The notes below the pieces were generated by a model. The model worked only from the letters and a program-made list of their open reading frames with translations, was not told where the DNA came from and made no database searches. Shown piece after piece: positions 3,533 through 57,139 of a stretch of 64,000 bases of DNA. The position numbers were made by a program, and so were the translations under genes. The DNA lies in assembly GCF_030028105.1 (NCBI RefSeq), contig NC_092397.1, positions 12,167,271-12,231,270 on the forward strand, read 5' to 3'. Origin of the DNA: Mobula birostris. Its lineage: Eukaryota. Position 1 is the first letter of the stretch, and each line of letters begins with the position of its first letter.

Positions 3533-5908
3533 CTGAAAAAGAGGAGGAAGGAAAGTTACATTCGCATCTTAGAAAACAGCATTGGCACCCAATTGCTGCC
3601 CAATCCCCAGCAGGGCCATTAGAAAGCTGTTGTTTGAATCATGACACAGTAGCACTAAACCTCCGCTATGATACACAAGCAGATGCCTAGTCACCTTCAG
3701 TCCTGTCAATTACTTAATTTTCTTTCATGATCAGATCTAGTCAATATCCAGGCTGAAAAGTGGAAAATTACACGGTGGATGATGGTCATTTCTGATCAGA
3801 GTTCACCTTGAAATGGGGCAGGTACAATGATACGATTTAAAAACCACTGGGATACTATGGGGGGTGGATCTGGGCCAAATGGAGGAAATTGAGATTAGAT
3901 GGTTGGGCATCATGATATGACATGGACACATTGGGCTCTACGCCTCTGCAAGTTTGCCTCCATCTGACTGGGAGCTCAGTGAACCAACCGTGGCTAACAG
4001 AGCTGCTCAGCGCCCCATCCACTACTGTAAACGCTCGCTCCAATCCACATCCCCCCACAGAGAGGCTTCAGTGGGAATCAGCTACAAAACCAAGGGGGTG
4101 TATCGGTTAGTGGAAGCTGTTACAGCTCAGAGTCAATTCCAGAGATTATACGTTCTCCCCATAACCTCGTGGACTTTCTCCCACATTCCAAAGAGGTACT
4201 GGTTAGTAGGTTAATTTGTCCTGTGATTCGGTTAGCGTTAAAGAGTGGAGTGCTGGACAGCGTGACTCTTTGGATTGGAAGGACCAGTTCCACACTAAAC
4301 TAAAGCATACTACAATTGTGGCAGCAAGTAGAGCTGCTGCCATATGGCACCCAGTGAACTGAGGCTCAATCCTCACTGCAGGGGCTGTTTGCATGGAGGT
4401 TTCATGCCTTCTCCGGGACTGCACCGAGTTTCCCGAGGTCCCCCGATTCCGTCTCACACCAAAGACGTGCATTTTGCTTGGTTAACTCGCCTCTGCAAGT
4501 TGCGCCCAGTGCATGGGCAGGTGGTAGAATATGAGAGGAGGCAGGAGAGAGGAGAGTCAATGAGGATGTGGGGGGGGGGGGGAGGGAGGGGCAGGGGAAC
4601 ATAAACAGGACTAACCAACGTTAGCACTAATGGTTCAGTGTGGATGTGGCGGACTGGTCATCCTTTAATTCTTTCTACATCGGTCTGCAGCAACTGGAAC
4701 ACCACCCCGTGCAATACCACGCACCATACCAAATAACACACTACTTCTGTGATCTTTGGCTTTGAACCTACCTAACATTACTATGGACATTATTATCGTG
4801 TCTGCTGAAGGGTCTTGGCCTGTAGTTCTTTTCCATTGATGGTGCATGGCCTGCTGAGTTCCTCCAGCATTTTGTGAGTGTTGATTGGACTTCCAGTGCC
4901 TGCAGATTTTCTCTTGTTTGTGATTGGAATACTACAGGTGTACCTTCACTGGAGAATCTTAGTGATCCCAGCAGTAACCCTGGGGTCACTGACTGGGAAA
5001 TAATATATCTAACAGCAGCACCCTTTGCCAGAATGAATGGAATGGACCTGACACATTCCCCTGAATGTATCTCGGGTCTCCAATTTACCTTTCTGTCAGT
5101 GAATTAGTCAACCACACATCTTCACATATCCTACTAAATCCATGTAATCACATAAAGCCTGTAAGACATAGGAGTTCATTTAGTCCATTCAACCCATCAG
5201 CAAATCAACAATTGCATCATGGCTGATTTATTATCCTTTCCAAACCTACTCTTCTGCCTTCTCCCCATAAGCTACGTCCTTACTAATCAAGAACGTCATT
5301 GCCTTTGTATAGAAAATCCTACAGAAGGTAGTGGATTTGACCCAGTACATCACAGGCAAAGCCCTCACCATCATTGAGCACATCTACTTGAAACGTTGCC
5401 GTAGAAAAGCAGCGTCCATCACCAGAGATCCCCACCACCCTTCTCGCTGCTGCCTTCAGGTAGAAGGTACAGGAGCCTCAGGACTCGCACCACCAGGTTG
5501 AGGAACAGTTACTACCCCTCAACCATCAGGCTCTCGAACTAGTGATTAACTACACTCACTTGCCCCATCATTGAGATGCTCTCACACTTTAAGGACTCTT
5601 TATCTCATGTTCTCGTTATTTATCGCTTATTTGCATCCGCAGACTTTGTTGTCTTGTGCACTCTGATTAATCTTTCACTGATCCTGTTAAAGCAACAGAT
5701 CACCTTTAGATTCTAAAACTCAGGGTTGTATACGCACTTTTGATAATAAAATGTACACAGAACGGGCTCATTCTCCCTTTGACGTGCAATGGCGCCGGGC
5801 TGCGTAACGTCATGACGTCAGAGGAATCCCTTCTATTCCTCCGCCGGGCTCTCGGAGGCCCTAAGCGAACCTGCGCCTCCCCCCACCAACCCCCCGGGGC
5901 CCCCTCAC

Positions 5909-6248
5909 CTTTGACGATGTCGCACTCGACCACGCGGCCGTACTCCTCGAACTTGGCCCGCAGCTCCTGGTTGCTGCAGCTGGCCGCCAGGTTGCCCACG
6001 TAGACCTTGGTGACGGCCGCGGAGATCGGGGGCTTAGGCCGCGACTCGGCCACGTTGAGCTTCTGGCCGTGCAGCTCGTACTGGTTGAGCGCGGCGATGG
6101 CCTGCGCCGCCTCCTCGGGGCTGTCCATGTGCACGAAGCCGTAGTGCCGGATGATATCGCACTCCCGCACCGTGCCATAATACTCGAAGAGCGTACGCAA
6201 CTCCTCCACCGTGCCCTCAGTCGGGATGTTGCCCACAAATATCTTCAT
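5909..6248 (-). CDS. rbm4: RBM4/RBM14-family RNA-binding protein, coding exon 1 (RRM1 and first half of RRM2)
   Basis: MKIFVGN..HYGFVHM (RNP2/RNP1) and [26 protein letters not shown]. Ends at donor AAG|gtgag; 340 nt, phase 1. Confidence 0.9.
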
Positions 6249-6369
6249 TTTGCTCTCTGTGCCTCCCTTCCCTTTCTACAGTAATCGCTTTATCCAAACA
6301 CCGCTGGCCTCGCGTATTTATGTTTAAACTGTTTGTTTTATTTTGAATAGAGCGCGACGATGCTGCCCC

Positions 6370-6690
6370 CCACTCTACAAAATGGCGCCGGTCCCAACGT
6401 TCGCCCAGGCAGTTGGAGTGGGAGGGGACGACCCTCTTTAAATGATGGTGCTCTCAGCCAATCAGAATCGGAGTACCGTCCCGCCGCCGGATGGGCAGCC
6501 AATCGTGTTCCGATATTCCCCTCCGTTTGTCTCCAAAGCCCGCCCACTCCCTCTCGCACAGCTACATCCGGCGGAAAGGGGCGGGACACACTGCCCCTTT
6601 CTGCAGCGCGGATTGGGCGCGCTGCGTGACCACGCGTGTTCCCATTCGCTCACATACTTCTCACTCCCGTCAGCTATAAATTTTGCGTCG
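6370..6690. promoter_or_regulatory. CpG-rich promoter of the RBM4-like gene, probably bidirectional
   Basis: YY1-type AAAATGGCG (~6379), CCAAT boxes (~6458, ~6499, reverse ~6612), GC boxes, and plus-strand TATAAA at 6675. Confidence 0.6.
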
Positions 6691-6859
6691 AAAGGATGCG
6701 GGGTTACTTTTATGTGCGAAACAGCTTCTGATGATGTTGAGGTGTGAGAATTGGAAGAATTCGTATACGGAGGGGTAAGGGCAAGTGACGAGGCTTTCGG
6801 TCGGATCGCTGGTCAAAGGTGAGAGGTCAGAGGTCTCACATGGCCGCCACCTGTTAGAT

Positions 6860-6995
6860 ACATAGAGGAGGAATTCCGCAGATGCTGGAAATTCAAGCAA
6901 CACACATCAAAGTTGCTGGTGAACGCAGCAGGCCAGGCAGCATCTCTAGGAAGAGGTACAGTCGACGTTTCAGGCCGAGACCCTTCGTCAGGACC
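6860..6995 (-). mobile_element. Solo Penelope terminal fragment carrying a hammerhead motif
   Basis: Reverse complement of 10463-10558 and matches 8398-8450. Confidence 0.75.
6960..6995 (-). ncRNA. Minimal type-I hammerhead ribozyme motif
   Basis: GGUC-CUGACGA-AGG(gucucgg)CCU-GAAAC-GUC-GACU: intact core, stems I and II, and palindromic ACGU helix III. Confidence 0.65.
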
Positions 6996-7253
6996 CGTTG
7001 TTAGATGCATAGAGTGTTTTTCAAGTGACGGATAGTTGTCAAGCCACACCATTGCTCTTTTCATTTTGTTAGAACCCTACCCCGCCTTTGTATTGCTTTA
7101 TACCCTCCTGGCCTCATTACTCCTGTCACCAATGCCTCCCTGCAGTGTTCCCCACCTTCATTCCATGGTGCACTGCCACCTCCTATGAAAGTCCACCTTC
7201 TTCAACTCTTTATAAACAGAGGGGACACTGTACAGAGGCTGGAATACTTGAGC

Positions 7254-7285
<32 letters not shown>

Positions 7286-7539
7286 GAGCTGGATGAATTC
7301 AGAGGGTCGACAAGACATGGAGCAGAATTGGGCCATTCTGCTCCGCCATTCCATCATGCCTGGTCCCGGAGGCCAAGTCCGTAAGTATATTTAAGGCGGA
7401 AGTTCGAAGTTCCATCAAGGGATCAAAGGATGTGGTGAGAAGGCAGGTGTGTGGGGTTGAGTGGGATCCGGGAGCAGCCATACTGAAATGGCAGAGCAGA
7501 CTCAATGGGCCAAATGGCCCAATTTTGCTCCTACGTCTT

Positions 7540-7970
7540 ATGGTGTTGCCCCTCCAGCCTGAGGGTGGACTCACCTTGCCATGAGGGAAGGCCATGGATT
7601 GACACGCCGGAATGGGAATGGGAATTAAAATGGTTGGCCGCTGTGAAGTCCTGTTTTTGTATCGGATAGAGTGGTGCTGCTTGATGAAGTGTTTTCCCAG
7701 TGTATGACAGTTCTCACCAATGTAGAAGAGGCCGCATCACTTCGGGAGCACTGGACACAATGGGGGACCCCAGCAGATCTGTAGGTGAAGTGTTTGGGGC
7801 CCTGAATGGAGGTGAGGGAGGAGGTGTATGGGCAGGTGTAGCACTTGGCCGTTTGTGGGGATAAGTGCTGGGAGGGAGATTAGTGGGGAGGGACAAATGG
7901 TTAAGGGAATTCCAGAGGAAGCGATCCCTGGGGAAATCGTACGGGGGAGGTAAAGATATGTTTAGTGGGG
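7540..7970 (-). mobile_element. Degraded Penelope-like fragment (GIY-YIG end)
   Basis: Diverged reverse-complement similarity to ~9650-10130. Confidence 0.55.
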
Positions 7971-8386
7971 ATGTTTAATGGGGACAAGCTCTCACTACCT
8001 ATTAAGTGCTCCCAATAGCGTGCACCTCAAATAGCTGCTGACAACCAAGTCCAGCTCCTGGCCTTCACATGTGACTTAGCTATTAAGCCCGGTGGAAGGG
8101 AAGGAAAAATTCCCATGACCGATTAATTTCATGGGATATGGGCAAAAAGTGGCCAAAACAGCATTTAGTTGAGATGGCAGCAGTAACACTGATGTGTGGG
8201 ACATAACGGAAAGCATTGACTACGAATGTAAAAAATGAAAAGGCATTCAATGGTTTATTCCTGTAAATAATTTTATTATGAATAAAGTTTATTTTGTTGA
8301 AAAAGTATTTTAGATTGATGTTGCCCCCTCCCAAAATAATCATGTTCTGATCAGATAAGGACGGCATGGTAGCGTAGTAGTTAGCA

Positions 8387-10560
8387 TGCAAACAACAGGA
8401 ATTCTGCAGATGCTGGAAATTCAAGCAACACACATAAAAGTTGCTGGTGACTCAGTTGCTGGTCCCTGGATCGTGACCCCACTAAGGAGCACCAGGCCAT
8501 TGTCTCCCACACCATCACCGACTTTATCAGCTCAGGGGATCTCCCATCCACTGCTACCAACCTTATTGTTCCCACACCCCGCACTTCCCGTTTCTACCTC
8601 CTACCCAAGATCCACAAACCTGCCTGTCCTGGCCGACCTATTGTCTCAGCTTGCTCCTGCCCCACCGAACTCGTTTCTGCATACCTCGACACAATTTTAT
8701 CCCCCCTTGTTCAATCCCTTCCTACCTATGTTCGTGACACTTCTCACGCTCTTAAACTTTTCGATGATTTTAAGTTCCCTGGCCCCCACCACTTTATTTT
8801 CACCATGGATGTCCAGTCCTTATATACTTCCATCCCCCATCAGGAAGGTCTCAAAGCTCTACGCTTCTTTTTGGATTCCAGACCTAATCAGTTCCCCTCT
8901 ACCACCACTCTGCTCCGTCTAGCGGAATTAGTCCTTACTCTTAATAATTTCTCCTTTGGCTCCTCCCACTTCCTCCAAACTAAAGGTGTAGCTATGGGCA
9001 CCCGTATGGGTCCTAGCTATGCCTGCCTTTTTGTTGGCTTTGTGGAACAATCTATGTTCCGTGCCTATTCTGGTATCTGTCTCCCACTTTTCCTTCGCTA
9101 CATCGACGACTGCATTGGTGCTGCTTCCTGCACGCATGCAGAGCTCATTGACTTTATTAACTTTGCCTCCAACTTTCACCCTGCCCTCAAGTTTACCTGG
9201 TCCATTTCTGACACCTCCCTCCCCTTTCTAGATCTTTCTGTCTCTGTCTCTGGAGACAGCTTATCCACTGATGTCTACTATAAGCCTACTGACTCTCACA
9301 GCTATCTGGACTATTCCTCTTCTCACCCTGTCTCTTGCAAAAACGCCATCCACTTCTCGCAATTCCTCCGTCTCCGCCGCATCTGCTCTCAGGATGAGGC
9401 TTTTCATTCTAGGACAAGGGAGATGTCCTCCTTTTTTAAAGAAAGGGGCTTCCCTTCCTCCACTATCAACTCTGCTCTTAAACGCATCTCCTCCATTTCA
9501 TGTACATCTGCCCTCACTCCATCCTCCCGCCACCCCACTAGGAATAGGGTTCCCCTGGTCCTCACCTACCACCCCACCAGCCTCCGGGTCCAACATATTA
9601 TTCTCCGTAACTTCCGCCACCTCCAACGGGATCCCACCACTAAGCACATCTTTCCCTCCCCTCCCCCTGCATTCCGCAGGGATCGCTCCCTACGCGACTC
9701 CCTTGTCCATTCGTCCCCCCCATCCCTCCCCACTGATCTCCCTCCTGGCACTTAGCCGTGTAAGTGGAAAAAGTGCTACACATGCCCTTACACTTCCTCC
9801 CTTACCACCATTCAGGGCCCCAAACAGCCCTTCCAGGTGAGGCGACACTTCACCTGTGAGTCGGCTGGGGTGATATACTGCGTCCGGTGCTCCCGATGTG
9901 GCCTTTTATATATTGGCGAGACCCGACGCAGACTGGGAGACCGCTTTGCTGAACACCTACGCTCTGTCTGCCAGAGAAAGCAGGATCTCCCAGTGGCCAC
10001 ACGTTTTAATTCTACATCCCATTCCCATTCTGACATGTCTATCCACGGCCTCCTCTACTGTAAAGATGAAGCCACACTCAGGTTGGAGGAACAACACCTT
10101 ATATTCCGTCTGGGTAGCCTCCAACCTGATGGCATGAACATCGACTTCTCTAACTTCCGCTAATGCCCCACCTCCCCCTTGTACCCCATCTGTTACTTAT
10201 TTTTATGCACACATTCTTTCTCTCACTCTCCTTTTTCTCCCTCTGTCCCTCTGAATATACCCCTTGCCCATCCACTGGGTCCCCTCCCCCCCCCCCCGTC
10301 TTTCTTCCCGGACCTCCTGTCCCATGATCCTCTGGTATCCCTTTTGCCAATCACCTGTCCAGCTCTTGGCTCCATCCCTCCCCCTCCTGTCTTCTCCTAT
10401 CATTTTGGATCTCCCCCTCCCCCTCCAACTTTCAAATCCCTTACTCACTCTTCCTTCAGTTAGTCCTGACAAAGGGTCTCGGCCTGAAACGTCGACTGCA
10501 CCTCTTCCTAGAGATGCTGCCTGGCCTGCTGCGTTCACCAGCAACTTTGATGTGTGTGGC
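8387..10560 (+). mobile_element. Penelope-like retroelement (Neptune type), 5'-truncated
   Basis: RT motifs GVAMGTRMGPSYA and RYIDD, Cys linker (CKWKKCYTC), GIY-YIG endonuclease (VIYC..LYIGET..RFAEH). One in-frame stop at 9753. 12-bp TSD TAGTAGTTAGCA at 8375-8386 and 10561-10572. Confidence 0.92.
10462..10497 (+). ncRNA. Hammerhead motif in the Penelope 3' terminus, core-mutated
   Basis: AGUC-CUGACAA-AGG..CCU-GAAAC-GUC-GACU, with G8>A relative to the 6960-6995 copy. Confidence 0.55.
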
Positions 10561-10825
10561 TAGTAGTTAGCACAATGGTTTACAGTACGGACGACCCGGG
10601 TTCAGTTCCTGCTGCTGCCTATAAGGAGTTTGAACGCTCTCCCCCGTGACCGTGTAGGTTTCCTCTGGGTGCCACGGTTTCCTCCCACAGTCCAAAGACG
10701 TTCCGGTTGTTAGATAAATTGGTCAGTGTAAATTGTCCCGTGATTAGGCCACGACTAATTCGGGAGGTTGCTGGGCAGCGTGGCTCGAAGGGCCGATTCC
10801 GCGCTGTACCTCAATGAGTAAATTA
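10561..10825 (+). mobile_element. tRNA-derived SINE (HE1/V-SINE-like), split by the Penelope insertion; head at 8362-8386
   Basis: A-box-like TAGCGTAGTAG, B-box GGTTCAGTTCC, core GGTTTCCTCCCACAGTCCAAAGAC shared with other copies in the window. Confidence 0.7.
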
Positions 10826-11179
10826 TCTTTGAGTGATCTTCGAGGACCCAGCTGGTATTTATGACAATATGGTCATTTCCGAAACTATTTTTTCCCCATT
10901 CCACATACATCTAATTGTGTGGAATTTTAATTCCCTAACCAGTCACGGTGAGATCGCTGGTAGATAGTTCTGACCGGCCGCCCGTTCAGTAAATGTCACC
11001 GTTGTCCCATTTGGGGTACTGAGACCTGCATTTCAGTCCATCCTGGGGAGTTTTGAAGACCAGACCTCCTATTCCCTTCATCTTCTATTCTCTCCCAAAC
11101 TTTCTGACAACGCTCTGGCTCGTAGAATGGTGGATCGCACTAAATTCTCTTTATTCGCAAGAAATAGTGAATACTGCAG

Positions 11180-11570: not shown

Positions 11571-12369
11571 GGTTCAATGAAGAAAGACCGTTTTCTCTGA
11601 GTCCAGACATGCCAAACGCTGGTGGGACTCAGCAATTCGGGCAGTATCTATCTAAGGAGGGGGAAAAAAAGGCAATGTTGTGGGCCGAGCCTCTTCATCA
11701 CAACCAGGCAAAAACATTCAAAAGTTCAAAGTAAATTTATTATCAAAGTGTATATATATGTCAGCATATGCAATCCTGAGATTCATTTTCTTGCAGGCAT
11801 GCTCAATAAATCCATAATAGAATAATAACCATATTATTATATAAAGACCGCATCGACTTGGACAGTCAAGCAGTGTGCAAAAGACAACAAACTACGCAAA
11901 TAGAAAAAGAATTAATAATAATGATACTAAATAAATATTCAGAATATGAAATAAAGAGTCCTTGAAAGTGAGTCCACGGGTTGTGGGAACAGTTCAGTGA
12001 TGGGGCGAGTGAAGTTATCCCCTCTGGTTTAGTAACCAGCTCGACTCACTCCAGGCAGGTACCAGCTCCAACATTCACAAAGCAGGGAACACCTCACAAA
12101 TAACTTTGGAAACGACCTCCAGCCCAGCAGATGACCCGAAGCATCACTGTGTCTACTTTAAAACACAGAAAGCAAAGGGACTCCGTCTCACAAAATGGAG
12201 GATGTAAAACAGTTCCACAAAATGGCAGCCTCCATCTCATAGAAAGGTAGAAAACCCACAGCACGTGCTTATTCTTAATAGAATAAGGATCCAATTGAAT
12301 GCTGTTCTTAGAGACCTATTTCCTTACTTCATGTTGATACTAAAATTTTACCTAAACTTTTGGCCTGTA

Positions 12370-18072: not shown

Positions 18073-19716
18073 CAGTGCCTATAGAAAGTATTCACCACGC
18101 TTCCCCCCCACCCCCGGCTTGGAAGTTTTCATGCTTTATTGTTTTACAATATTGAATCACAGTGGATTTAATTTGGCTATTTTTGACACTGATCAACAGA
18201 AAAATACACTTTTGTGCCAGAATGAAAACAGATCTCTACAAAGTGATCTAAATTAATTACAAATATAAAACACAAAAGAATTGATTGCATAAGTATTCAC
18301 CCCCTTCAAGTCAGTATTTAGTAGATGCACCTTTGGCAGCAATTACAGCCTTGAGTCTATGTGGATATGTCTCCATCAGCTTTGCACATCTGCACACTGC
18401 AATTTTTCCCCATTCTTCTTTACAGAACTGCTCAAGCTCTGTGAGATTGCGTGGGGATCATGAGTGAATAGCCCTTTTCAAGTCCAGCCACAAATTGTAT
18501 GTTGGATTGAGATCTGGACTCTGACTTGGCCACTCCAGGACATTAACTTTGTTGTTTTTAAGCCATTTCTGTGTAGCTTTGGCATTAAAATTGGGGTCAT
18601 TGTCTTGCTGGAAAACAAATCTCCCAGGTCACAGTTCTCTTGCAGACTGCATCAGGTTTTCCTCTAGGATTTCCCTGTGTTTTGCTGCATTCATTTTATT
18701 GTCTACCTTCACAAGCCTTCTAGGGCCTGCTGCGGTGAAGCATCACCACAGCATGATACAGTCACCACCATGCTTCACGGTAGGGATGGTGTGTTTTCGA
18801 TTATATGCGGTGTTTGGGTTACACCAAACATAGTGTCAAGTCTGATGGCCAAAAAACTCAATTTCGGTTTCATCAGACCATAGAACCTTCTTCCAGCTGA
18901 CTTCAGAGTCTCTCACATGCCATCTGGCAAACTTCAGCCAAGAATTCATGTCAGTTTTTTTCAACAGAGGCTTTCTCTTTGCCACTCTCCCATAAAGCTG
19001 CAACTGGTGAAGCTCCTGGGCAACAGTTGTTGCATGCACAGTCTCTCCCATCTCAGCCACTGAAGCTTGTAACCCGTCCAGAGTTGTCATAGGTCTCTTG
19101 GTGGCCTCCCTCACTAGTCCCCTTCTTACACAGTCACTCAGTTTTTGAGGACGGCCTGCTCTGGGCAGATTTACAGCTGAGCCATATTCTTTCCATTTCT
19201 TGATGATTGAATTAACTGTACTCCAAGTATTCAGTGACTTGGAAATTTTCTTGTATCCATCTCCTGACTTATGCTTTTCAATAACTTTTTCGCAGAGTTG
19301 CTTGGAGTGTTCTTTTGTCTTCATGGTGTAGTTTTTGCCAGGATACTGACTCACCAGTAGTTGGACCTTCCAGATACGGGGGTATTTCTACAACAATCAA
19401 TGGAAACACCTTGACTGCACACAGGTGATCTCTATTTAACTATTATGTGACTTCTAACAGCAATTGGCCACACCAGTGATGATATGGTGTGACATGTTAA
19501 AGAGGGTGAATACTTATGCAATCGATTATTTTGTGTTTTTTATTTGTAATTAATTCAGATCACCTTGTAGAGATCTGTTTTCAATTTGACAGGAAAGAGT
19601 CATTTTCTATTGATCAGTGTCAAAAGCCAAATTAAATCCACTGTGATTCAATGTCGTAAAACAATAAAACATGAAAACTTCCATGGGGGGGGGGGAGGAT
19701 GGTTTTATAGGTACCA
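18073..19716 (-). mobile_element. Tc1 DNA transposon (IR/DR type) with frameshifted transposase
   Basis: TA|CAGTG terminus, ~230-bp imperfect TIRs with internal direct repeat AAGTATTCACC. ORF 18836-19354 has GRPQK and WSDET; [10 protein letters not shown] follows downstream of the ORF's stop. Confidence 0.9.
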
Positions 19717-29741: not shown

Positions 29742-30011
29742 TCATATGGTGATGTGGAAGGAGTCCTCCAGCCACTTGTCCCGGGAGTTCTGGGTGTGGG
29801 GAACCTTCAGACTGCTGCGTGGTGCCTCGTCCCCCACCTGCTCGGCCTCGTATTCCTCCTCCTCCTCGTAGTAGCTGTTCTCTGGGGAGAAGGGGCCCTC
29901 GGGGGCCGCGGCGGCGCTGGCGTCCTGGTACAGGCCCTTGTATTCCTGGATGGCCTCGTAGAGCGACCAGAGCTTGCACAGGAGGGACATGTCCAGCTGC
30001 CGGAGGCCCAC
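29742..30011 (-). CDS. fam89b: FAM89B (LRAP25) coding exon 2
   Basis: cag|VGLRQLDMSLLCKLWSLYEAIQEYKG..DKWLEDSFHITI*; phase 0, 270 nt. Confidence 0.9.
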   Translation of the reverse strand: MGLRQLDMSLLCKLWSLYEAIQEYKGLYQDASAAAAPEGPFSPENSYYEEEEEYEAEQVGDEAPRSSLKVPHTQNSRDKWLEDSFHITI

Positions 30012-30363
30012 CTGCGGAGGGGAGAGGACAGCACTGGTGAGGGACACGGCATGGCCTGACAGGGGGCCCAGTAGCCAGCTTGTTACCGACACAACTGCCC
30101 TGTAACCCCTCGGGGAGGGGGGAGAGAGGGAGGGAGAGGGGGAAGGAGAGGAGAAGGGGGAGGGATGGGGAGGGAGAGATAAGGAATGGGGAGGGGGAGG
30201 GAGGGATAGGGGATGGGGAGAGGGGGAGGGGGAAGGAAGGGGAGAGGGGGGAGGGAGAGGGGAGAGGAGGGAGTGAGGAGCAGAGGGAGAGGGGGAGAGG
30301 GAGAGTGGGGGGGGGGGAAGAGAGGGGAAAAAAAAAACAGCCAGGGTTCCAGCTCTCCATCAC

Positions 30364-30810
30364 GACCGGTCCACCCCTGGGTTAGAGAGAGAGGGGAATC
30401 AGTCAGGTTTCCTGTTCCCCGTCACTGACCGGTCACCCCTGGGTTAGAGAGAGAGGGGAATCAGTCAGGGTTCCTGTTCCCCGTCACTGACCGGTCACCC
30501 CTGGGTTAGAGAGAGAGGGGAATCAGTCAGGGTTCCCGCTCCCGCTCACTGACCGGTCACCCCTGGGTTAGAGAGAGAGGGGAATCAGTCAGGGTTCCTG
30601 TTCCCCGTCACTGACCGGTCACCCCTGGGTTAGAGAGAGAGGGGAATCAGTCAGGGTTCCCGCTCCCGCTCACTGACCGGTCACCCCTGGGTTAGAGAGA
30701 GAGGGGAATCAGTCAGGGTTCCTGTTCCCCGTCACTGACCGGTCACCCCTGGGTCAGAGAGGGAGAGGAAATCAGCCAGGGTTCCTGTTCCCCGTCACTG
30801 GGTTAGAGAG
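30364..30810. repeat. 62-bp tandem repeat (~7 units) in the FAM89B intron
   Basis: Unit GACCGGTCACCCCTGGGTTAGAGAGAGAGGGGAATCAGTCAGGGTTCCTGTTCCCCGTCACT. Confidence 0.95.
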
Positions 30811-31105
30811 AGGGTGGGGGTGAATCCGCCAGGGTTCGGCGAGGCAGATAATGATAATGAAGTAAGCAGGCAGCAGCTGCCCGGAGCGGGTAACCGTGTC
30901 AACCTCGGCACCTGCTGGGTCCTCTCTCCTTTCTCGTATCACGCTCTCACTTCCCTCAGCGGCTACTGCCGCATCCTGTGTAGGAGCTGGGAGAGAGACG
31001 GGGCAAACGCACCCCTCGGGCTCAGCTCCAGAGTTCCCAGCAAGTTCACCTCTGCTTGACTTCCAATGGCTGGGAGGGTCAGTGGTGGATGGGACACATT
31101 TCCTA

Positions 31106-31489
<384 letters not shown>

Positions 31490-32249
31490 CTAATCCGGCT
31501 TCCATCCGGTTTATCGATGCCCCCTTCTCCAATTTAGTCCATCGCGGACTCCCGGTCACGATTTGGAACCTTCTCTCCCCCCCGCCCTTCCTGTGCGTTC
31601 GGTCTCTCCACCCCGGCTTTCCCCTTCCGAGTTGTGTGGTTACAGCCCTCTCGTACAAAGCGCTCCCAATCTCTTTGTTCATTGAACGGCACGCCCCGAG
31701 CTCAGCTGCCAAGACAGAGACGCCGCCACTCGCGACTTCAAAACTTTGATTTTGTTTTTCCAACACTTCCTTCGCATGGCTTATTGTTGCACTAAACGCC
31801 CAGAACTAGCGAGGGCCGTCTCGCTTATTTTTAGAAAGTAAAACGTCTGATTTTCTTTTTACAAATACGAGGAAATCTGCTGACGCTGGAAGCCCAAAGC
31901 AGGACACACAAAACACAGGGGAACTCAGCGGGTCGGGCAGTATCCACGGAAATGAATAAACAGTTGACGTTTCGGGCCGGACCCTTCTTTATTTTCTTCT
32001 AACCTGAGGCGTTTTAATTTTATTTTGAGGGGACTCTGTGGAGATTGCTTTCTCCAGTTAACAGCCGGTGGAGATCCTCGGGCCGATGCTGAGTCACTCC
32101 TCCAGTAAATTGGTGGAGTTTCTTGTCAGACGGGAAACGCGACAATGAGCACAGCAGGATCCCACCTAGACATTAGCACCATCTCTACTTGCTTAGGGAG
32201 GTTCTTCATGACATCAAAACAGTGACAAACTCCTATAGATGTGTAGTGC

Positions 32250-34078: not shown

Positions 34079-35261
34079 CATACTCAAGACAATAAATTCT
34101 GAACTTTAAATCCAAACTCTTTATTAGCTTTAAATTAAAATTCAAAAACGAGGATCGTGCTTTACATTCATTCTCGGCGGGGCGCTGTTCTACAATGAGT
34201 GGAAACACTTGATCCCAGAGGCCGATGTCCATACAACACTGAAGCTACCTAAAGACCGCAATTGGCTTCAAACTTGGTCAAGACTGAATTATGCCCCAAC
34301 TTACTCTGGCCTGATCTCTTTTTTTTTTGCAGAGTAATACTTCCCGTCAAAGAGAATACGATTTAAGGTTCTCCCTCACGGGCGGCTGGCAGCCTGGATT
34401 CCCCCACGGAGAAAAGTTTCTCCCAGGAGTACTGAACAGATGCGCAAGGTCAAAGGTTACAGCCCGACTGACCTTAACTGCATCTTCCTCCCCTCCCTAT
34501 CATAAATCCGCACAGCCGTGTTCAACCCTCCTTTTGAAACGTTAGCAAGTCTGCACGAAGGCAGAGTAACACATACGGACCGCTGGAGGATCTCAGCGGG
34601 TCAGGCAAGGGATGGGAGTAAAGCATTGGCGTTTCAGACTGACACCCTTCGTCAGTCTAACAGCAGAGCTCTCCATTTGAATGGCCAATGCTCCAGAATT
34701 GTCTCAGACACCAAGGAGTAAATATTAATGCCGGCACTGCCACCAATAATGCATCAAAGTCACCAACAAAATATGTTTTGACATTTTGAGTGTAGAGAAG
34801 ATGGGATTAGTTGACAAGGCAGGACACTTGGTCTTGCATTGAAACTTTCATAAATATGTCTGTGATGTTGGCCGGTACACAAAAAAAAAAATTGAAGTCC
34901 ACAGGCTGTCTTGAGGTAGCGAATGGGTTCGGATTTTACATCAGTCACTTTTGGCTGTAATATATTTACAAACTCTCTCAGTACCGCAACTCCGTTGTGT
35001 AATGAATGGTGCCAGAAACACACAAGACTGAGAAGAAAGGGCAAATACCGAAAGTGGAGGGAGGGGACTAATTCTGCCGTTTGCAGAAACCAACATTAGG
35101 GCGTATTCTGGAGTTATGGAATGCAGCAAATATCAATTTCAACAGCAACTGGTCTTCAGATCTGAATGTGAATTGCAGACTGAATTTAAAATGCAGCTCA
35201 GAACAATGGTCTTCCTGGAGTTGCAGGCTGGGGTCAGTTGCAGACCAGGAAACATCCCATT

Positions 35262-36630: not shown

Positions 36631-37827
36631 CGTCTCCGGTACGACGCCTGCTTGTGTTGAATAAAGACTTCCCGATCCACTAGTGTCAGTGTCTCTCTGC
36701 TGATTTTGTTTGCAGTAACAACACCGAAGCATACACTTACGTCAGGCGACAGAATTTAATACTGCTGTGGGTGCCCGCTCCTGCGTGAGGCTGTCAGGAA
36801 GTTTGGGCTGGAGGCACTGCAGGGCGTCGGGCAGTCCTGATGCAGAATCCCAATCCAAAATCTCCACTGTCCCTCTACCTCCACGGATGCTGCTTGTCCT
36901 CGTTGGGCTCCTCTAGCAGCTTGTTTCGTGGCTGGCCCGGAGTCGAACCCAAACTCGTCGGATCAATGCGGCTTTTAACCAGGCTTCCAGCATTGGTTAC
37001 GTGATGTCTTGGTGGTGGGTGGTTGGTGGTGGGTGGTGGGTGGTGGTGGGGGGGGGGTGGGCACCTTCACTCCAGTGGCAAGAGACGCAGGGTGGGGAGG
37101 CCTGTGAAGTGGAGCTACTGTGGAACCTCCTCCTCAGATGCTCACGTTCCAGCTCCCTGGAGCCCAGACGTGGAATCGCAACGACCGCTTCCGCGGGGAG
37201 CAGGACAGTGGCAGGGTTCAGGGACCTACACGGGGAGCGTCAAACAGCAGCTACGCGGCACATCAAGGCAATCGCGTGCTGCGGGGGCGGGGTTTGTCCA
37301 AGGGTGGGGGGTGGGGTGTGCTCAGCACTAGCAGGGGGGGGGGGGGCCACATGTCAAGCCCTCTGGAGTTTGGGGTGCACTGACCGTTTCAAACGATAGC
37401 CCTTAGCTTCAGCAGAGCGTGGAAATGCTGGGGGGGGGGGCAGGAGAGGAAGAGGGTCTGCGGAGGCAGGGTCAGTGCGAGGAGGGCCAGGAGCGTGACC
37501 GGCCAGAGGGAGACTGAGGGCGTTCTGCCTGGTGCTGAGTGGACGAGGCCAGCGACCCCGGGGTGGGGGGGGGGGGTGGAGGAATGAGGAGGCGTGACTG
37601 ATTCCAGGTAGGTGCGGCCAGCGATGAGAAGGGGTTGAGGGCCGTAGCGAGTGCAGAGTGGGTGTGGCCTACGTCGAGAAGGACCCCCGGCGGGTTCTGA
37701 GCGCTCCTGAGCAGCGGGTCCGAGGGCAAGGCCACCGCCCAGGGTGGGAAGCAGGAGGGGCGTGACCATTGCTGGGTAGGCGCGACCAGCGCCGGGGGGA
37801 GGCAGGGACGCTCCTCACCGCCCGCGC

Positions 37828-38180
37828 CTACGCCAGCCGCTTCAGGCTGTGCAGGGAATCGGCGCAGCTCCGGATCAGGCCGCAGAGCTGCGCGCTGTAC
37901 TCGACGGACGCGGCCCGCTCCAGCTCGGCGCAGGCCCAAGCCAACTTCCGCAGCACCGCCCGCTCGGCCTCGGCGGGGGCGCCGGCCTCAGGGGCCGGGG
38001 GAGGGGGGGCCGCGGCGTCCGGCGCCGCCAGATGGGCGGCGGGGAAGGAAGCCGCTGGCTCGGGCCGCTCCTCCACCTGCAGGTCCGGGGTGGGACAGCT
38101 CCTGTACGGCTGCTCGGGCTGGCCGTTGTAGAGACGTTGCCGCTCCCTCACTTGGGTCAGTGCTGCCTGCGGGTTCAAGG
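37828..38180 (-). CDS. znrd2: ZNRD2/SSSCA1 coding exon 4
   Basis: cag|CC gives A-LNPQAALTQVRERQ..AVLRKLAWA..QLCGLIRSCADSLHSLKRLA*; phase consistent. Confidence 0.9.
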
Positions 38181-39239
38181 CTGTGGGATGAAGAAGGCAT
38201 GAACAGCACCCGTTAGACTTGCATCTGTACAGCACCATCACCGTCCCATAGACCAAGCAGATCGCCGGGTCTCTCTTCCACATTTACTGGGGGGCGTCAT
38301 AGATGGAGGGCCCCTGCCACGCGTCCCACAATCTCTTTGACCCTCGACAGTCAGGAAGGAGGTACAGGAGCCTCAGCACTAGGACTGCCAGACTGGTTAA
38401 CAGCTTCTTCCTTCAGGCTGTGAGGTTAATGAATACCCTGCCACTACCATGGTCTCGTCACCGAGCTGTTTACTGTCTGTCTGTCTGTCCGGCGCCCTAC
38501 AGGCATTCTGAATTATATTTTAATAACTTATTTATGGTAATATTTTGTTTGACGTCCTGTGTGCGATATACATTCTGTGCTCCAGAGGAATGTTTTGTTG
38601 CGTTGCATACCTGTACTCAAGAATCGAGTTTCTCCTCTTCCTTCCCACGGGGGGGTGGGGGGGTCCCAGTTTCTCCACCGTGCTCCCCTCAAGGTGGTAA
38701 ACCAGTAAATCACCACAAGGCCGGGCGTGTGTGGCAACAGGCCACGGGGACAGGAGAGGCACGGGAGGGTGCGTTTGACAGGGGTAATATATCACTCTAC
38801 CCCTCCCATTTCACGTGTCACAGGGTACCGCAGCATCAGGACAGGCCTTTCGGCCCATCTAGCCCCCTGCCGACCTCACCCCCGGCTCACATCCGCCCAA
38901 AACTTCCCTCGAGCGTTACAGCCGAACTCGCGCACACCACCTCTGGCCGCCGGCAGCTCGCTCCACGTTCGCGCTGCCCTCTGAGGAAGCTGCCCCTTAA
39001 TACTTCACCTTTCACCCTAAACCTGTGACCTTTAGTCTCACCTGAGCTGAGGAGTGGGGCGGGGGGGGATGAAGCCTGCACGCAATTACCCTATCTATAC
39101 CCATCTTACACACACAGGGGATTCTGCAGATGCTGAAAATAATAAGCCACACACACAAAATGCGGGAGGAACTCAGCAGGTCGGGCAGCCGCCTACGGAG
39201 GCGCGAAACGTTGACAGTTCATTCCTCTCCACGGATGCT

Positions 39240-41939: not shown

Positions 41940-42570
41940 TCAAGCTTATCAGCTCCGTCCGCCAGAAAAAAGCGGGGTCTCCTGGTGGCCACCCATTTTA
42001 ATTCCACTTCCCATTCCAATATGCCAGTCCGCGGCCTCTTCCACTGCTGGGATGAGGCCACACTCAGGTTGGAGAAACAACAGCTTATATTCCATCTGGG
42101 CATGAACATCTGGGAAACAGTCATAGTCATACTTTATTGATCCCGAGGGGAAATTGATTTTTGTTACAGTTGCCCCAACCTAGAGTATAAAACACAACCA
42201 CCCCACCCCCGCCCTCTCTGACACCATTCCCCATTCTCATTTCCCTCTCTCGCCTTACCTCCATACCTCCCCTCCTACTTTTCTTTCTTCCATGGCCTTC
42301 TGTCCTCTCCTATCAGATTCCCCCTTCTCCAGCCCTGTATCACTTTTGCCAATCGACTTCCCAGCTCGGTACTTCATCCCGCTCCCCACCCTCCCGGTTT
42401 CACCTATCACCCTGTGGTTCTCTCTTCCCTACCCCACTTCCCTTTTAAATCTATTCCTCAGCCTTTCCTCTCTGGTCCTGCCGAAGGGTCTTGGCCCGAG
42501 ACGTCAACTCTTTACTCTTTTCCAGGGATGCTCCCTGGCCTGCTGAGTTCCTCCAGCATTTTGTGTGCAA
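41940..42570 (+). mobile_element. Degraded Penelope 3' end with decayed hammerhead motif (~42474-42509)
   Basis: Similar to 9960-10550; CTGCCGAAGGG..CCCGAGACGTCAAC. Confidence 0.6.
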
Positions 42571-43435
42571 TGAACGAATTACCCACCAGGTGAACCACCA
42601 GAGGAGCCATGCCAGCCCTAATGAGCCTAAGACCGAATTCCATCTCTAGAGCATTAAATACTGCAGTACCGTCCAGGCCCTTGGCCCACAATGTTGTACT
42701 GGCCGTTTAACCTACCTCAAGATTAATCTAACCCGGCCCCCCCCCCCACCCCACTAGCCAGCACTCTGTCGTTCCCTCACCCGCGTGCGGCACGGTCAGG
42801 GCAACACGGCTGCAGAGCCAGCGGCCACTCCTCGGGGTTCCCCTCTGCCGCCGCCCGGAAGGAGTTTCAACGTCCTCCCCGTGACCGCGTGGGTTTCCCG
42901 CGAGCGCTCGAGTCTCCCCTCCCACCCCCAATCCCGAACCTCATTCGAAAGGTCAGCGAGGTGAGGGCACGTGACGCGGGCGCCGGACGCGAGGCGATGC
43001 CCGCGGGCCACCCGGCATAACGCTCGCCAATGTGACTGAGCAGGAGCGCTGCATTTCGATGCACGCATCACAAATAAAGCTAATCTTACCCAATCCTAAA
43101 CGTCCCTAACATACCAGCTGTTACTGTCACCCCAGCAGTGCATCATAGGCACCCAGCACCCTGTAGAAACACTTACATCTGACAACCACCCCCCCTGCCC
43201 CCTGGCATAAGCTAATTCTGCCATGGGATTGTTCAGAGACGTTGGCATGGATGGGGGATATCTGGAGGTCTACGTACACCTCTTATCGTCTGGTATCCCC
43301 CCCACCCAATCAAGTTACCTCTCATCCTCCTTCTCTCCGAGTCACTGTTTATTCAGGGTGAGGGTCAGTCACTGTTTATTCAGAGAGATAAGCACTGTGG
43401 GTGAAGAGTACAGTCAGCAGTTGTACAGTACTCAC

Positions 43436-49925: not shown

Positions 49926-50837
49926 AACTAACTGAGTAAAGAGACCAAGATGCTCATTCAAGCTCACTTGCCCAGCTTTGCCCCATATACATCTAAACCA
50001 GGGGTCCATGGGCCCCTCAGTGAATGGCAGGGGTCCACGGTGTAAAAGGAAGGTTGGGAACCCCTACAACCTTTCCTAGCCATGTCCCTTCCTCTAGCTG
50101 CTGGTTTCACCGAAGTGACAGCCTCTGTGTGAAGAATTTGCCACTCAGGCCCGTTTCACATCTCTTCCCCCCAATACCTCAAACCTATGCCCTGTCCCTG
50201 GGGAAAAGACTACACACATTCACCCTGGGTAGGCCCTTTATTTAATACACTTCCCTCCGGTCACCTCTCAGTCTTAACTGTGTAGCAGATGGTCTAATGC
50301 TATCACAGCACCAGCGACCCCGGGTCAGTTTTACCAGGGTCGTGACCGAGCGGGTTTGCTCCGGGTGCTCTGGTCTCATCCCACGTTCCAGAAGGTCACG
50401 TGGACGTAATTGGGCAGTGAGGGGTCATTGGGCCAGAGGGGCCTGTGGCCGAGCTGTATCTCCAAATTGAAAAGAAATAGCCCAGCCTCTGCCTATAACT
50501 CAGGCTCTTGATTCTTGAAAACGTTCTCATTTGTTGATGAGAGGCATTGATGGTGTGATAGCCAGAGGCTTTTTCCCAGGGCTGAAATGGCTAACATCAG
50601 GGGGCACAGTTTTAAGGTGCTTGGAAGTAGGTACAAGGGCCCAGTTCTGCTCCTGTGTTTTAGTCTTATGGTCTGTTTTCAAAGCAGAAACAAACAGACT
50701 TTTGAATACTAATGAACGTGCAAGAAAGCAGTGCAGAGTAGACTCTACCTTATGGACGGGCAGGGTGAGTACAAAGCGGCCAAGTGGCCTACCCCCTGAT
50801 TCACAATGTCTTTTCGCTTCCTGTCGTTCCAGGCAGG

Positions 50838-51005
50838 ATGCTCCCTCAGTACTGCGTCTCGCTGGCCAGCGTGCAGAAGGCTCAGGCCACCATCGATGGC
50901 TTGGTCCACCGAACCCCTGTCCTCACCAACTCCACCCTGGACCGTCGGGCGGAGCGGCGGGTCTTCCTCAAGTGCGAGCTTTTCCAGAAAACGGGATCGT
51001 TCAAG
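50838..51005 (+). CDS. srr: Serine racemase, first coding exon
   Basis: MLPQYCVSLASVQKA..HRTPVLT..FLKCELFQKTGSFK|gtagg; 168 nt, PLP lysine is residue 56. Confidence 0.93.
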
Positions 51006-51544
51006 GTAGGACACCTCTGGCCAGACCTCTGCAATCCTCTGAAGGCAAATGGGGACGGTATTCGCTTTCTCTTGCAACTTGGCTGTGTGTCAGTCTTTAC
51101 GTATAGTTAATTAGGTCAACGTTCGGTCAGACGGCGGCGCGCATGGTCGCAACTGCCACTCTGGGTCCAACCAAAGGACTCCATGCTGGGTTGGGGGGGC
51201 TGCCCCTCTCCGTCGATGCTGCCCTCCAGTGTTCGCTCACTGGCAGATAAGCTGGATTGCGTTTGTCTGTGGCTGCACCAGTAAACTGCTGGGGGCTTGT
51301 CATTGCCGACAACATCCATGCATCCTCAATCTACAGGACAAGACACTCAGGGACTTGGGCTATATTATATTTTTTTGTGTGACTGTATATTTACTGCTAT
51401 CTTACAGGTGCGATGTGTACCTTGTGCTGTGTATGACTGATGATATTGTGTTTTGTACCTTGGCCCCGGAGTAACACTGTTTCATTTGGCTGTATTCGTG
51501 TATGGTTAAATAACAATTAAATTGAACTTAAATTCAAACTTGAT

Positions 51545-52410
51545 TTGGATAATGGCTTTGTGGCCAAATTTGCGGACCATACAAAGGTAGATGGAGGGGT
51601 GGTCGGTGTTAAGGGAGCTGAGGTCTTGGATAGATTAGCGGAATTGGTAAAAAAAAGTGGCAGATGGAATACACTGTATAGTCATGCACTTCAGTTCAAA
51701 TGATAAAGGCATAGAATATTTTCCAAGCAGGGAGCAAATTCGGAAATCCAAGATGCAAAGGGACATTGTAATCCTTATGCCGGATTTCCTAACAGTTGAG
51801 TCAGTGGTGAGGAAGGCAAATGCAATGCTAGCGTTCATTTCTAGAGGGCTGGTATATAAAAGCAAGGGTGTGATGCTGAGGCTTTATAAGGCACTGGTCA
51901 GACCGCACCTGGAGTACTGTGAGCTGTTTCGGGCCCCAAGTCTAGCTGGCATTTTAGAAGGTCCAGAAAAGGTTTGCGAGAATGATCCCAGGAGTGAATG
52001 GGTTAATGTATGAGGAGCATTTGGTACCTCATGCTGGAGTTTAGAAGATTGATGGGGCGGGGGGATCTCATTGAAACATTGAAAGGCCAAGATAGAGTGG
52101 ATGTGGAGTGTATGTTTCCAGTAGTGGGGGAATCTAGGACCAGAGGGCACAGGGTCAGAGTACAAGGACGTCCCTTTCAAACAGATAAGAAGGAATTTCT
52201 TTAGTCAGAGGGTGGAGAGTCTGTGGAATTCATTACCACAGATGGCTGTGGAGGCTGTCATTGGGTATATTTAAAGTGGGGGGTGATAGGTTCTTAACTA
52301 GTGAGGATAGCAGGAGAACAGGGTTGAGAATGACAACAATTCACCCATGTTGGACTGGCTGAGCAGACTCGATGGGCTGAATGGCCTAATTCTGCTCCTG
52401 CGTCTTACAG
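51545..52410 (+). mobile_element. Degraded CR1 3' fragment
   Basis: KANAMLAFISRG..LVRPHLEYC. Confidence 0.75.
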
Positions 52411-52436
52411 TCTTATTGGTGTACGTGTTGTTGCAG

Positions 52437-52566
52437 ATCCGAGGAGCCCTGAATGCGGTGTCCGGCCTCGCTGAGAGGGGGCAGGAAGGCCTCCAGGCCC
52501 GAGCGGCGGTGACCCACAGCAGTGGCAACCATGGACAGGCGCTGGCCCTCGCTGCCCGAATGAAAG
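52437..52566 (+). CDS. srr: Serine racemase, coding exon 2
   Basis: IRGALNAV..VTHSSGNHGQALALAA; 130 nt, phase 1. Confidence 0.93.
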
Positions 52567-52839
52567 GTGCGGAGGGCTGGATGTGGCGTGGAGGCTAACC
52601 TTTCCTGCACCACGGTGCTGTACGGTGTGAGAAGAAGGCCCCATTGTATACAGTGGCACCAGTACTGGAGCTCAGCGCACTCAGTCATAGAGATCGGGGG
52701 TAATGGGATGGCAGAGGGAACGCCCCGCGTCTCTTTAACTGGCCACAGCACGGCCACCCCTTTAATTGCCTGTGCTGGCCCTGTTCCATTATCCCATAAG
52801 CTATGACTGAATGTCTTCACATCACTGCACGTTCCTTCA

Positions 52840-53590: not shown

Positions 53591-53669
53591 CATCTTCTAA
53601 CTCAATGTGTTTGTTTATCTGAGATGTGGCTTGTTCACTGTCCTACTGTACAGGCATTGCCCCTTTGAA

Positions 53670-55880: not shown

Positions 55881-55987
55881 GGGTCCCTGCTCTGCTGAGG
55901 GAGGGCCAGTTAATTCACCTAATGACCTCAAACTCCTTTCTTGCTGCATTTCCAACCATTCACAACCATACCTTTGAACCTCCTCAG

Positions 55988-56091
55988 GAATTCCCTCGTA
56001 CGTGGTTGTACCTCGAACAGCCCCAGCCTGCAAGAAGGCCGCCATGCTGGAGTACGGCGCACACCTCCTGGAGTGTGAACCCACCGACGAG
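55988..56091 (+). CDS. srr: Serine racemase, coding exon 3
   Basis: GIPSYVVVPRTAPACKKAAMLEYGAHLLECEPTDE|gtgag; 104 nt. Confidence 0.93.
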
Positions 56092-57139
56092 GTGAGGAGG
56101 TGCCCGCTGGGAGTGTGGATTGAGGGTTGGGAAAGGGCCAGACTGAGGGTGAGGGGCAGGAGAACGGGAGAGGGAGGACTGTGCCGAGGGGAAGGAGTAA
56201 GGGAGGTAGGAGACTGGATGGAGGGAACAGAATCTGCAAAGAGAGGTCAACCATTCCAGTTAGCCCCCCACCCCCTCTATCTGTTACCTCAGTCACCGCA
56301 CTGTAAACACTTCAAACCAGTTTTTATAATGCTGTTTACTTTGTAAATCCATGCCGGTATTCAACAGGTCAGGCAGCATCTATGGAGAGTCAACGTTTTG
56401 GGATGACAACTTCGGCCCAAAACATTGTCTCTATTCCTTTCCATTGATGCTGCCTGACCTTCTGAGTTCCTCCAGCGCTTTGTGTGTGTTACTCTGGATT
56501 TCCAGCATCTGCAAATTCTGTTGTGTTTATGACATACTAGCATTTATATATTTATGTACATTTAATTCACTATCCATAGAGGAAGGGAATGAGGAGAAAG
56601 AAAACACTGATTCTAAATCTCCGCTGCCTTGCGGCCACACCCACCCATGGGAAAGGCTTCGGGGGTAAACCCCGGGAAAGAAATCCGGAGCCAGGGTCCC
56701 TCAGGCTGTTTGACGTTGGCAACCTCTGTGATGACACTGGCACCAAGCTATATTGTTGCTTGCCCTTCCCTTGGACTACATCGGTGATGTGGCGAGGGGG
56801 AGCCCGCTGCATGGGCCACAGCTGGTTCCTCAAATCTGCCCTCCCAGGCTTGCGCCCTGGAGAGGACACTGTTCACCAGAGGCGCAAACCCATAATCCCC
56901 TGGGGTTGACGGCTACTTACTCACTACTCACTTCTAACTTATTTTATAGAATTCTTTATTCTCTATATATGCTGCATGTTGTTTTGTGTTGCATCTCGCA
57001 CCGACACACCACAGCAAATTCCTAATACATGTAAATGTATCTGGTGAATAACGTTAATCCTTGACAATGAAGGGATAAGGCAGAGAAAGGGAGTAAGGAG
57101 AAGAGACAGAGGTAGAAAACGTTGGACTATTGTTTGCGT

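What the first reader, a model, noticed from the sequence alone, without database searches (positions are those of the whole stretch)
6960..6995. Intact minimal hammerhead ribozyme motif dispersed with Penelope termini
Seen on the minus strand: stem I GGUC/GACU, core CUGACGA, stem II AGG/CCU, GAAAC and cleavage triplet GUC, with a palindromic ACGU in place of helix III. A G8A copy ends the Penelope element (10462-10497). Decayed copies lie at ~4803, ~31962, ~39204, ~42474 and ~56390. Known: Penelope-like elements carry minimal type-I hammerheads thought to act as dimers. Inference: the short terminal module may spread on its own as a retrozyme-like non-autonomous element. The intact copy lies ~0.7 kb upstream of the RBM start codon on the same strand and could cut upstream read-through RNA.
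Basis: partly seen in the sequence, partly recalled or inferred. Interest (0 to 1): 0.72.

Follow-up and report, generated by a model that had tools for sequence, protein, structure and literature searches.

The report
Penelope retrotransposon stub with hammerhead
The motif is a real copy of the small self-cutting RNA motif already known from Penelope-type jumping genes, sitting in a 130-base stub of one such gene among about 88,000 similar motifs in this genome; it is likely inert here, and the one extra is that many stubs begin at the motif's front edge, probably where the element's RNA starts.

Summary
The hammerhead motif at 6960-6995 (-) is real. It lies in a 131-nt insertion between 16-nt target-site duplications. 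The insertion matches the terminus of the neighbouring Neptune-type Penelope element at 95 of 98 bases. The genome holds 87,952 such cores (control 631). Full-length units carry the same module at both ends of one RT-GIY-YIG ORF.

The stub is a 5'-truncated Penelope retrocopy, not an independent retrozyme. Edge-starting copies and long copies share haplotypes, tandem arrays are rare, and core positions decay like flanks (G8A fits CpG decay). The motif is the published minimal, dimer-type PLE hammerhead. Alone, it is predicted to fold with its core hidden, so cutting RNA upstream of the RBM gene is unlikely.

The extra observation: 22 of 97 copies start at the motif's 5' edge (about ten times background) and none at the cut site. 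This suggests an RNA start there, with internal priming about 135 nt downstream. Rare joins fall exactly at the cut bond, but a second site is hit as often. The scan noted this family before, in this genome and others.

The parts
6960..6995 (-). Minimal type I hammerhead motif: stem I, CUGACGA, extra A, stem II, GAAAC-GUC with palindromic ACGU and no loop III; predicted cut between 6964 and 6963
   Evidence: sequence; matches the min-HHR description in PMC4209133
6868..6998 (-). Solo insertion: 127 nt of the Penelope pLTR terminus (hammerhead plus tail, numbered +1..+127 from the G at 6994), preceded by 4 junction bases
   Evidence: 95 of 98 identical to 10463-10560; 96% to the tail piece at 8397-8450
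6999..7014 (-). 5' copy of the 16-nt target-site duplication
   Evidence: 15 of 16 identical to 6852-6867
6852..6867 (-). 3' copy of the target-site duplication
8387..8450 (-). Inverted tail piece (about +77 to +137, no hammerhead) at the 5' end of the Penelope insertion
8451..10163 (+). 5'-truncated Neptune-type Penelope ORF (RT, CX4CX2C linker, GIY-YIG) with a premature stop at 9753-9755; family sequence starts at about 8464
   Evidence: Pfam RVT_1 and GIY-YIG; ORFs; linker motif in 6 of 6 full units
10164..10560 (+). pLTR / 3' UTR ending at the short end (about +98), with the G8A hammerhead at 10462-10497 (change at 10471, a CpG site)
8375..8386 (+). 12-nt target-site duplication of the Penelope insertion (other copy at 10561-10572); the target is a tRNA-like SINE (name recalled, not tested)
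   Evidence: identical 12-mers
4802..4912 (+). Decayed older copy in the RBM intron; core altered, GAAAC-GUC missing
11607..11705 (-).
31869..31991 (-). Older copy lacking the CUGANGA half
34569..34655 (-).
36834..36922 (+).
39118..39225 (-). Older copy, mostly tail, no core
42473..42583 (+). Older-subfamily terminus of a Penelope fragment; core mutated at A6 and A13
56356..56515 (.). Head-to-head pair of older stubs, no complete core
5900..6248 (-). First coding exon of an RRM-RRM-zinc-knuckle gene (RBM4-like; name recalled), ATG at 6248; neighbour only

Best explanation
The motif is the known minimal hammerhead of a very abundant Neptune-type Penelope retrotransposon, carried here in a 131-nt TSD-flanked stub that the element's own enzyme likely copied from uncut RNA and that is likely inert at this spot. 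Steps: (1) Shown: full units are head-to-tail, so the hammerhead-plus-tail module is both the 3' end and the 5' leader of the ORF. (2) Shown: copies share two 3' ends (about +98 and +131 to +137) and have variable 5' ends. (3) Inferred from the anole PLE work: the enzyme nicks DNA and starts copying inside the RNA at these two points. (4) Shown: about a quarter of copies begin within a few bases of the hammerhead's 5' edge and none of 97 at the cut site. Inferred: the transcript starts at that edge (an initiator-like YYANWYY lies there; consensus recalled). Priming in the leader copy then runs off after about 135 nt and the stub is joined to the target or folds back, much like a strong-stop product. 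(5) Inferred: the ribozyme matters, if at all, in active tandem units, as a dimer or with protein help. Single genomic copies decay neutrally.
For: TSD and 95/98 identity to the adjacent element. 42,639 exact tail 26-mers and 87,952 cores against 631. 6 of 6 fetched full units have the module at both ends; one has a 1,114-aa open frame with RT and GIY-YIG. In 97 copies chosen only by the tail, 5' ends run from +94 to beyond -900; 22 fall in -6..+4 (0.033 per nt against 0.003 elsewhere; p=2e-15, window chosen after seeing the data) and 0 at +32. Genome-wide purine-preceded junctions, normalised: about 3,900 at position 0, 1,800 at +6, 920 at +32. Edge and long copies share haplotypes. C7T 6/69 against G8A 5/70; core against flank decay not significant. 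The monomer MFE pairs the core GACG with CGUC. PMC11167929: internal priming defines the tail, hammerhead mutants insert normally, cleavage needs protein. PMC4209133: most min-HHRs are single motifs of truncated PLEs and a monomer did not cleave.
Against: No transcript start was observed; the edge could be an RT stall or a joining hot spot. The cap-G test failed to discriminate: G exceeds A before position 0 (1,272 against 797), but also before +6 and +32. Upstream of the edge lies a branch-point-like, pyrimidine-rich stretch ending in YAG in every subfamily seen, and the D. virilis intron ends at helix I. Non-CpG core decay is about half the flank rate (5/644 against 69/4,159, p=0.12), so weak selection is not excluded. 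Five loci show a blunt join exactly at the cut bond. The 97 copies all come from the first 7 Mb of one contig.
Confidence: 0.72

Rival explanations
1. Same stub origin, but the edge is a splice acceptor as in D. virilis Penelope, and short copies derive from spliced or splicing-intermediate RNA.
For: Branch-point-like TACTAAC, a pyrimidine tract and YAG lie directly before the motif, and YAG is kept across subfamilies. The intron end maps to the 5' end of helix I in D. virilis, and introns overlap the pLTR promoter in Penelope and Chlamys.
Against: No GTRAG-type donor among the 10 GT sites in the 330 nt upstream. 0 of 90 junction copies carry an element-derived upstream piece followed by GT in six full units. 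The AG is also needed for stem I, and the whole sense strand is pyrimidine-rich. Branch-point positions vary among copies.
Confidence: 0.12
2. The edge reflects an RT stall or a preferred microhomology join on longer RNA, not an RNA end.
For: Many edge junctions use microhomology with the target or with an inverted arm; 11 of 21 edge-region copies carry an inverted arm; the three GUC triplets of the motif produce slippage joins.
Against: Simple, non-inverted junctions are still several-fold more common at position 0 (15 of 30 rows in each of two samples) than at +6 (5 of 30) or +32 (3 of 30). Stem I is already opened when RT reaches its 5' strand.
Confidence: 0.1
3. One reading: the module is an independent retrozyme-like element that spreads through its own RNA.
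For: Fixed-ended short copies with their own TSDs are very numerous. A few micro-tandems of the hammerhead segment exist. A 2026 preprint derives animal retrozymes from pLTRs.
Against: No separate lineage. Retrozymes are defined as tandem repeats with a hammerhead in each unit, yet only 381 places match a core-to-core micro-join pattern, and about half of the inspected rows are not hammerhead joins. Unit ends do not lie at the cut site.
Confidence: 0.04
4. This particular copy has been co-opted to cut read-through RNA upstream of the RBM gene.
For: Intact core, same strand, 716 nt before the ATG.
Against: Young copy (97% identical to its sister), and 46 of 68 comparable copies are equally intact. 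No same-strand intact partner in the window. The junction bases favour a further misfold. The density makes such neighbours common.
Confidence: 0.02

Closest known systems
Minimal hammerheads (min-HHR) in pLTRs of metazoan PLEs (Cervera and de la Pena 2014, PMC4209133; parts 1-2 of 4 read)
   Same: Type I core without helix III, palindromic 15.2-16.2, extra base between 9 and 10.1, short helix I, mostly dispersed single motifs from truncated elements, some in opposite-strand pairs; reported for Xena, Poseidon and Neptune of fishes.
   Different: About 88,000 cores here against 4,000-9,000 reported for coelacanth and Xenopus (different descriptor); helix II is shorter, and its first pair is G-U in two thirds of young copies.
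EN+ Penelope-like elements, Neptune/Nematis type (Craig et al. 2021, PMC8557442, passages; Arkhipova et al. 2013, PMC3846280, passages)
   Same: Single RT-GIY-YIG ORF with a CX2-5CxxC linker, partial tandems forming pLTRs, 5' truncation, inverted 5' copy, 30-40-nt tail at one end, TSDs, solo pLTRs.
   Different: The passages read do not describe a pile-up of 5' ends at the hammerhead's edge.
PAc, Poseidon of Anolis (Frangieh et al. 2024, PMC11167929; parts 1-2 of 4 read)
   Same: Two adjacent internal RT start points that define the tail; uncut RNA as template; hammerhead upstream of the start points.
   Different: In PAc the ORF starts inside the hammerhead; here the first in-frame ATG is about 170 nt downstream; different clade.
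Animal non-LTR retrozymes (Li et al. 2026 preprint 10.64898/2026.07.22.740005; parts 1-3 of 5 read; supplements closed)
   Same: pLTR-derived, type I hammerhead, many monomers.
   Different: Defined by tandem units that each carry a hammerhead; this copy is a monomer that shares haplotypes with autonomous copies.

Membership tests
PLE minimal hammerhead (min-HHR) | CUGANGA and GAAA core with NUH triplet | tested here: met
PLE minimal hammerhead (min-HHR) | No loop III; palindromic 15.1-16.1 segment | tested here: met
   ACGU
PLE minimal hammerhead (min-HHR) | Unpaired base between 9 and 10.1, then G10.1-C11.1 | tested here: inconclusive
   Extra A present; the pair is G-U in this copy, G-C in 21 of 75 sampled copies and in the sister subfamily
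PLE minimal hammerhead (min-HHR) | Located in the pLTRs of a PLE | tested here: met
   module at both ends of 6 of 6 full units; the core pattern matched 10 of the 12 modules
PLE minimal hammerhead (min-HHR) | Self-cleavage as a dimer or with protein help | not testable with these tools
   the crossed dimer cannot be scored by the folding tool; 5 blunt joins at the cut bond are only a hint
EN+ PLE, Neptune type | One ORF with RT and C-terminal GIY-YIG | tested here: met
   1,114-aa open frame in L393; broken in the window copy
EN+ PLE, Neptune type | CX2-5CxxC linker between RT and EN | tested here: met
   6 of 6 units; shared with Nematis
EN+ PLE, Neptune type | RT phylogeny places it in Neptune | not tested
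   no tree built; no reference PLE proteins fetched
EN+ PLE, Neptune type | Partial tandems, 5' truncation, inverted arm, one-sided tail, TSD | tested here: met
Non-LTR retrozyme | Tandem units, each with a hammerhead | tested here: not met
   monomer here; micro-tandems rare
Non-LTR retrozyme | Own lineage apart from the autonomous element | tested here: not met
   24 edge against 36 long copies, p=0.77
Non-LTR retrozyme | Circular RNA intermediate | not testable with these tools
   no raw RNA reads were offered

The most novel reading that the evidence does not exclude
The junctions of this family are a fossil record of the PLE RNA life cycle. The transcript starts at the first base of hammerhead stem I. 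Internal priming in the leader yields strong-stop-like 135-nt stubs, which make up about a quarter of all insertions. Rare blunt joins of C17 to that same first base record RT jumping onto the 32-nt 5' cleavage product, which would be evidence that a minimal PLE hammerhead cuts in vivo.
Probability: 0.22. Interest if true: 0.6.

Novelty: new member of a known kind. Interest (0 to 1): 0.26.

Why it matters
The motif and its link to Penelope elements are published, so the locus itself is ordinary. What PLE hammerheads do in vivo is still open (PMC4209133, PMC8557442, PMC11167929). A family with tens of thousands of young copies gives junction statistics that make two questions testable: where the RNA begins, and whether cut RNA is ever used as a template.

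Tried and rejected
Rfam scan: no hammerhead family hit at E<=10.

RNA evidence: no RNA holder listed; only contigs of runs guessed to be RNA. Laid contigs of the RBM gene reach 6418, 6379 and 6405 in three runs, and nothing covers 6464-6839. Contigs cannot show a start and there was no DNA comparator, so this is not counted. Loose ends at the hammerhead edge are not counted either, because their majority letters resemble the different upstream sequence of older subfamilies.

Cap-derived G at the junction: G was also in excess at two control positions, where microhomology confounds it; inconclusive.

Spliced retrocopies: 0 of 90.

Pile-up at the cut site: 0 of 97, and the lowest of three genome-wide junction counts.

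Cleavage-fossil joins: among 50 loci read (the first 30 rows, plus 20 picked from the other 70 listed rows of 381 matches), 23 have a hammerhead segment joined back to the edge. Of these, 5 end bluntly at +31, 2 are ambiguous between +28 and +31, 3 end at +30, and 10 end at +36 to +38. Poisson p for 5 to 7 at one of ten positions is 0.08 to 0.009, uncorrected; suggestive only.

Dimer folding: the cofold minimum is not the active form, and the crossed form cannot be scored. No formal covariation count was run.

A strict first breakpoint calling gave false breaks in the poly-C tract and was replaced. There, one copy (L129) misaligned and about three near -9 to -15 are alignment overshoots; all 97 were kept in the count.

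Pfam named none of three neighbouring host ORFs.

Full report
Numbering. +1 is the G at window 6994 (minus strand). The core CUGACGA is +4..+10, GAAAC +24..+28, GUC +29..+31; the predicted cut is +31/+32.

Observation. It is not a chance match: the tight core pattern occurs 87,952 times in the 4.0-Gb genome against 631 for the reversed control, one per about 46 kb. Rfam has no matching model at E<=10. The G8A copy is on the plus strand, and the five decayed copies are present but lack a full core. The family base at position 0 is A, so this copy's first stem I pair is a G-U made by a junction base. Stem II most likely starts at G+12 after an unpaired A, because C at +23 (21 of 75 copies, and a sister subfamily) cannot pair with that A. 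This is the register described by Cervera and de la Pena.

The insertion. The motif lies in 131 nt (6998-6868) between 16-nt duplications with one mismatch. It matches the terminus of the neighbouring Penelope copy at 95 of 98 bases. That neighbour is a 5'-truncated RT-GIY-YIG ORF with a premature stop. It ends at about +98, carries an inverted tail piece at its 5' end and has its own 12-nt TSD, the one-sided-tail layout described for PLEs. Among 30 loci found with the ORF's 5' part, many are preceded by the same module. All six extended units have it at both ends, 3.5-3.7 kb apart, and all have the CX4CX2C linker of Neptune/Nematis. One has a 1,114-aa open frame with RT and GIY-YIG. The first in-frame ATG is at about +171.

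Where copies begin and end. A tail 26-mer occurs 42,639 times. I read 97 of the 100 listed places, all in the first 7 Mb of contig C1. In 95 of 97, the alignment ends at +126 to +145 (selected for the long end); a second end near +98 is common in another sample. 5' ends run from +94 to beyond -900. 22 of 97 fall in -6..+4, about ten times the rate elsewhere (p=2e-15; window chosen after seeing the data), and none falls at +32. Genome-wide counts of purine-preceded starts, corrected for point mutants in 30-locus samples and for pattern pass rate, give about 3,900 at position 0, 1,800 at +6 and 920 at +32. Templates therefore carried an uncut hammerhead, as found in vitro for the anole element, where internal priming defines the tail and hammerhead mutants insert normally.

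Independent element? The 24 edge copies and 36 long copies share alleles at four polymorphic sites (Fisher p 0.12-1.0) and show no clustering (p=0.77). The short copies are thus drawn from the same source elements as the long ones. Retrozymes are tandem by definition; here core-to-core micro-joins match only 381 places.

Selection. In single copies the core decays like the flank: C7T 6/69 and G8A 5/70; essential CpG positions 19/297 against non-essential 35/391 (p=0.25); non-CpG core 5/644 against flank 69/4,159 (p=0.12). G8A fits ordinary CpG decay. 46 of 68 copies spanning the motif are intact, so this copy is not exceptional. Across subfamilies, the core and stem I persist while loop II and both flanks differ (by eye; no formal covariation count). 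This fits selection in source lineages.

Activity here. The monomer's predicted fold pairs the core GACG with CGUC, and in context the junction bases pair with stem II. A published min-HHR monomer did not cleave, and dimers cleaved weakly. No same-strand intact partner exists in the window. A role for the RBM gene is unlikely.

What makes the edge. Three readings remain. (a) An RNA start: an initiator-like YYANWYY (consensus recalled) is centred on position 0, and PLE promoters lie in the pLTR. A test for cap-derived G did not discriminate. (b) A splice acceptor, as in D. virilis: the sequence looks like one, but there is no good donor in the pLTR and 0 of 90 junction copies look spliced. (c) A stall or microhomology hot spot. 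I favour (a): priming in the leader copy would run off after about 135 nt and give exactly these stubs. This is inferred.

Does it cut in vivo? Following leads from earlier notes, I read 50 loci. Of 23 with a hammerhead segment joined back to the edge, 5 end bluntly at +31, 2 are ambiguous, and 10 end at +36 to +38, where no cut is predicted. This is a hint, not a demonstration.

Literature seen. PMC4209133 and PMC11167929: parts 1-2 of 4. Preprint 10.64898/2026.07.22.740005: parts 1-3 of 5, supplements closed. PMC8557442, PMC2377424, PMC3846280 and PMC6155905: passages. Searches gave no paper on this family or on the edge pile-up, but none was aimed narrowly at the latter. The supplements of PMC4209133, which may list cartilaginous fish, were not read. 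The host looks like a cartilaginous fish from recalled repeat types and earlier notes; I did not test this. The scan has noted the family and the edge pile-up before; my own counts up to preceded that look-up.

Verdict. A real, known motif in an ordinary dead stub: a new member of a known kind, with modest interest for the junction statistics.

Noticed in passing
window 8364-8386 and 10561-10830 (+): The Penelope copy is inserted into a tRNA-like SINE whose two halves flank it (type recalled as an elasmobranch SINE; not tested).
   Followed up: partly
window 7539-7968 (-): An older Penelope endonuclease fragment, 68% identical to the young family, lies between the stub and the young element.
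   Followed up: no
L078; L445 (G000:C4:178772050-178772750); L401; L443: Small head-to-tail arrays of the hammerhead segment (units of about 32-40 and 90 nt). These are the only places seen where same-strand cores are close enough for dimers, and possible seeds of retrozyme-like arrays.
   Followed up: partly
module +29..+38 in loci L397-L446: Two hot spots for joins back to the hammerhead edge, at +30/31 and at +36 to +38. The second ends in UGC/UGU(A), like the two main 3' ends, and may be a weak third priming point.
   Followed up: partly
module +52..+100: A 16-codon upstream ORF lies between the hammerhead and the element's first in-frame ATG.
   Followed up: no
L228, L229, L231, L234, L239, L240: A sister subfamily with a different loop II and different flanks keeps the core and a G-C first pair of stem II.
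   Followed up: partly
window 29742-31489 (-), 37828-38283 (-), 50519-56346 (+): Host-gene-like ORFs, recalled as FAM89-like, SSSCA1/ZNRD2-like and serine-racemase-like. Pfam gave only a weak PALP hit for the last.
   Followed up: partly
window 18836-19387 (-): Tc1/Sleeping Beauty-type transposase remnant.
   Followed up: no
window 63129-63195: Hairpin with a sub-threshold Rfam mir-9256 hit on both strands; probably an inverted-repeat transposon end.
   Followed up: no
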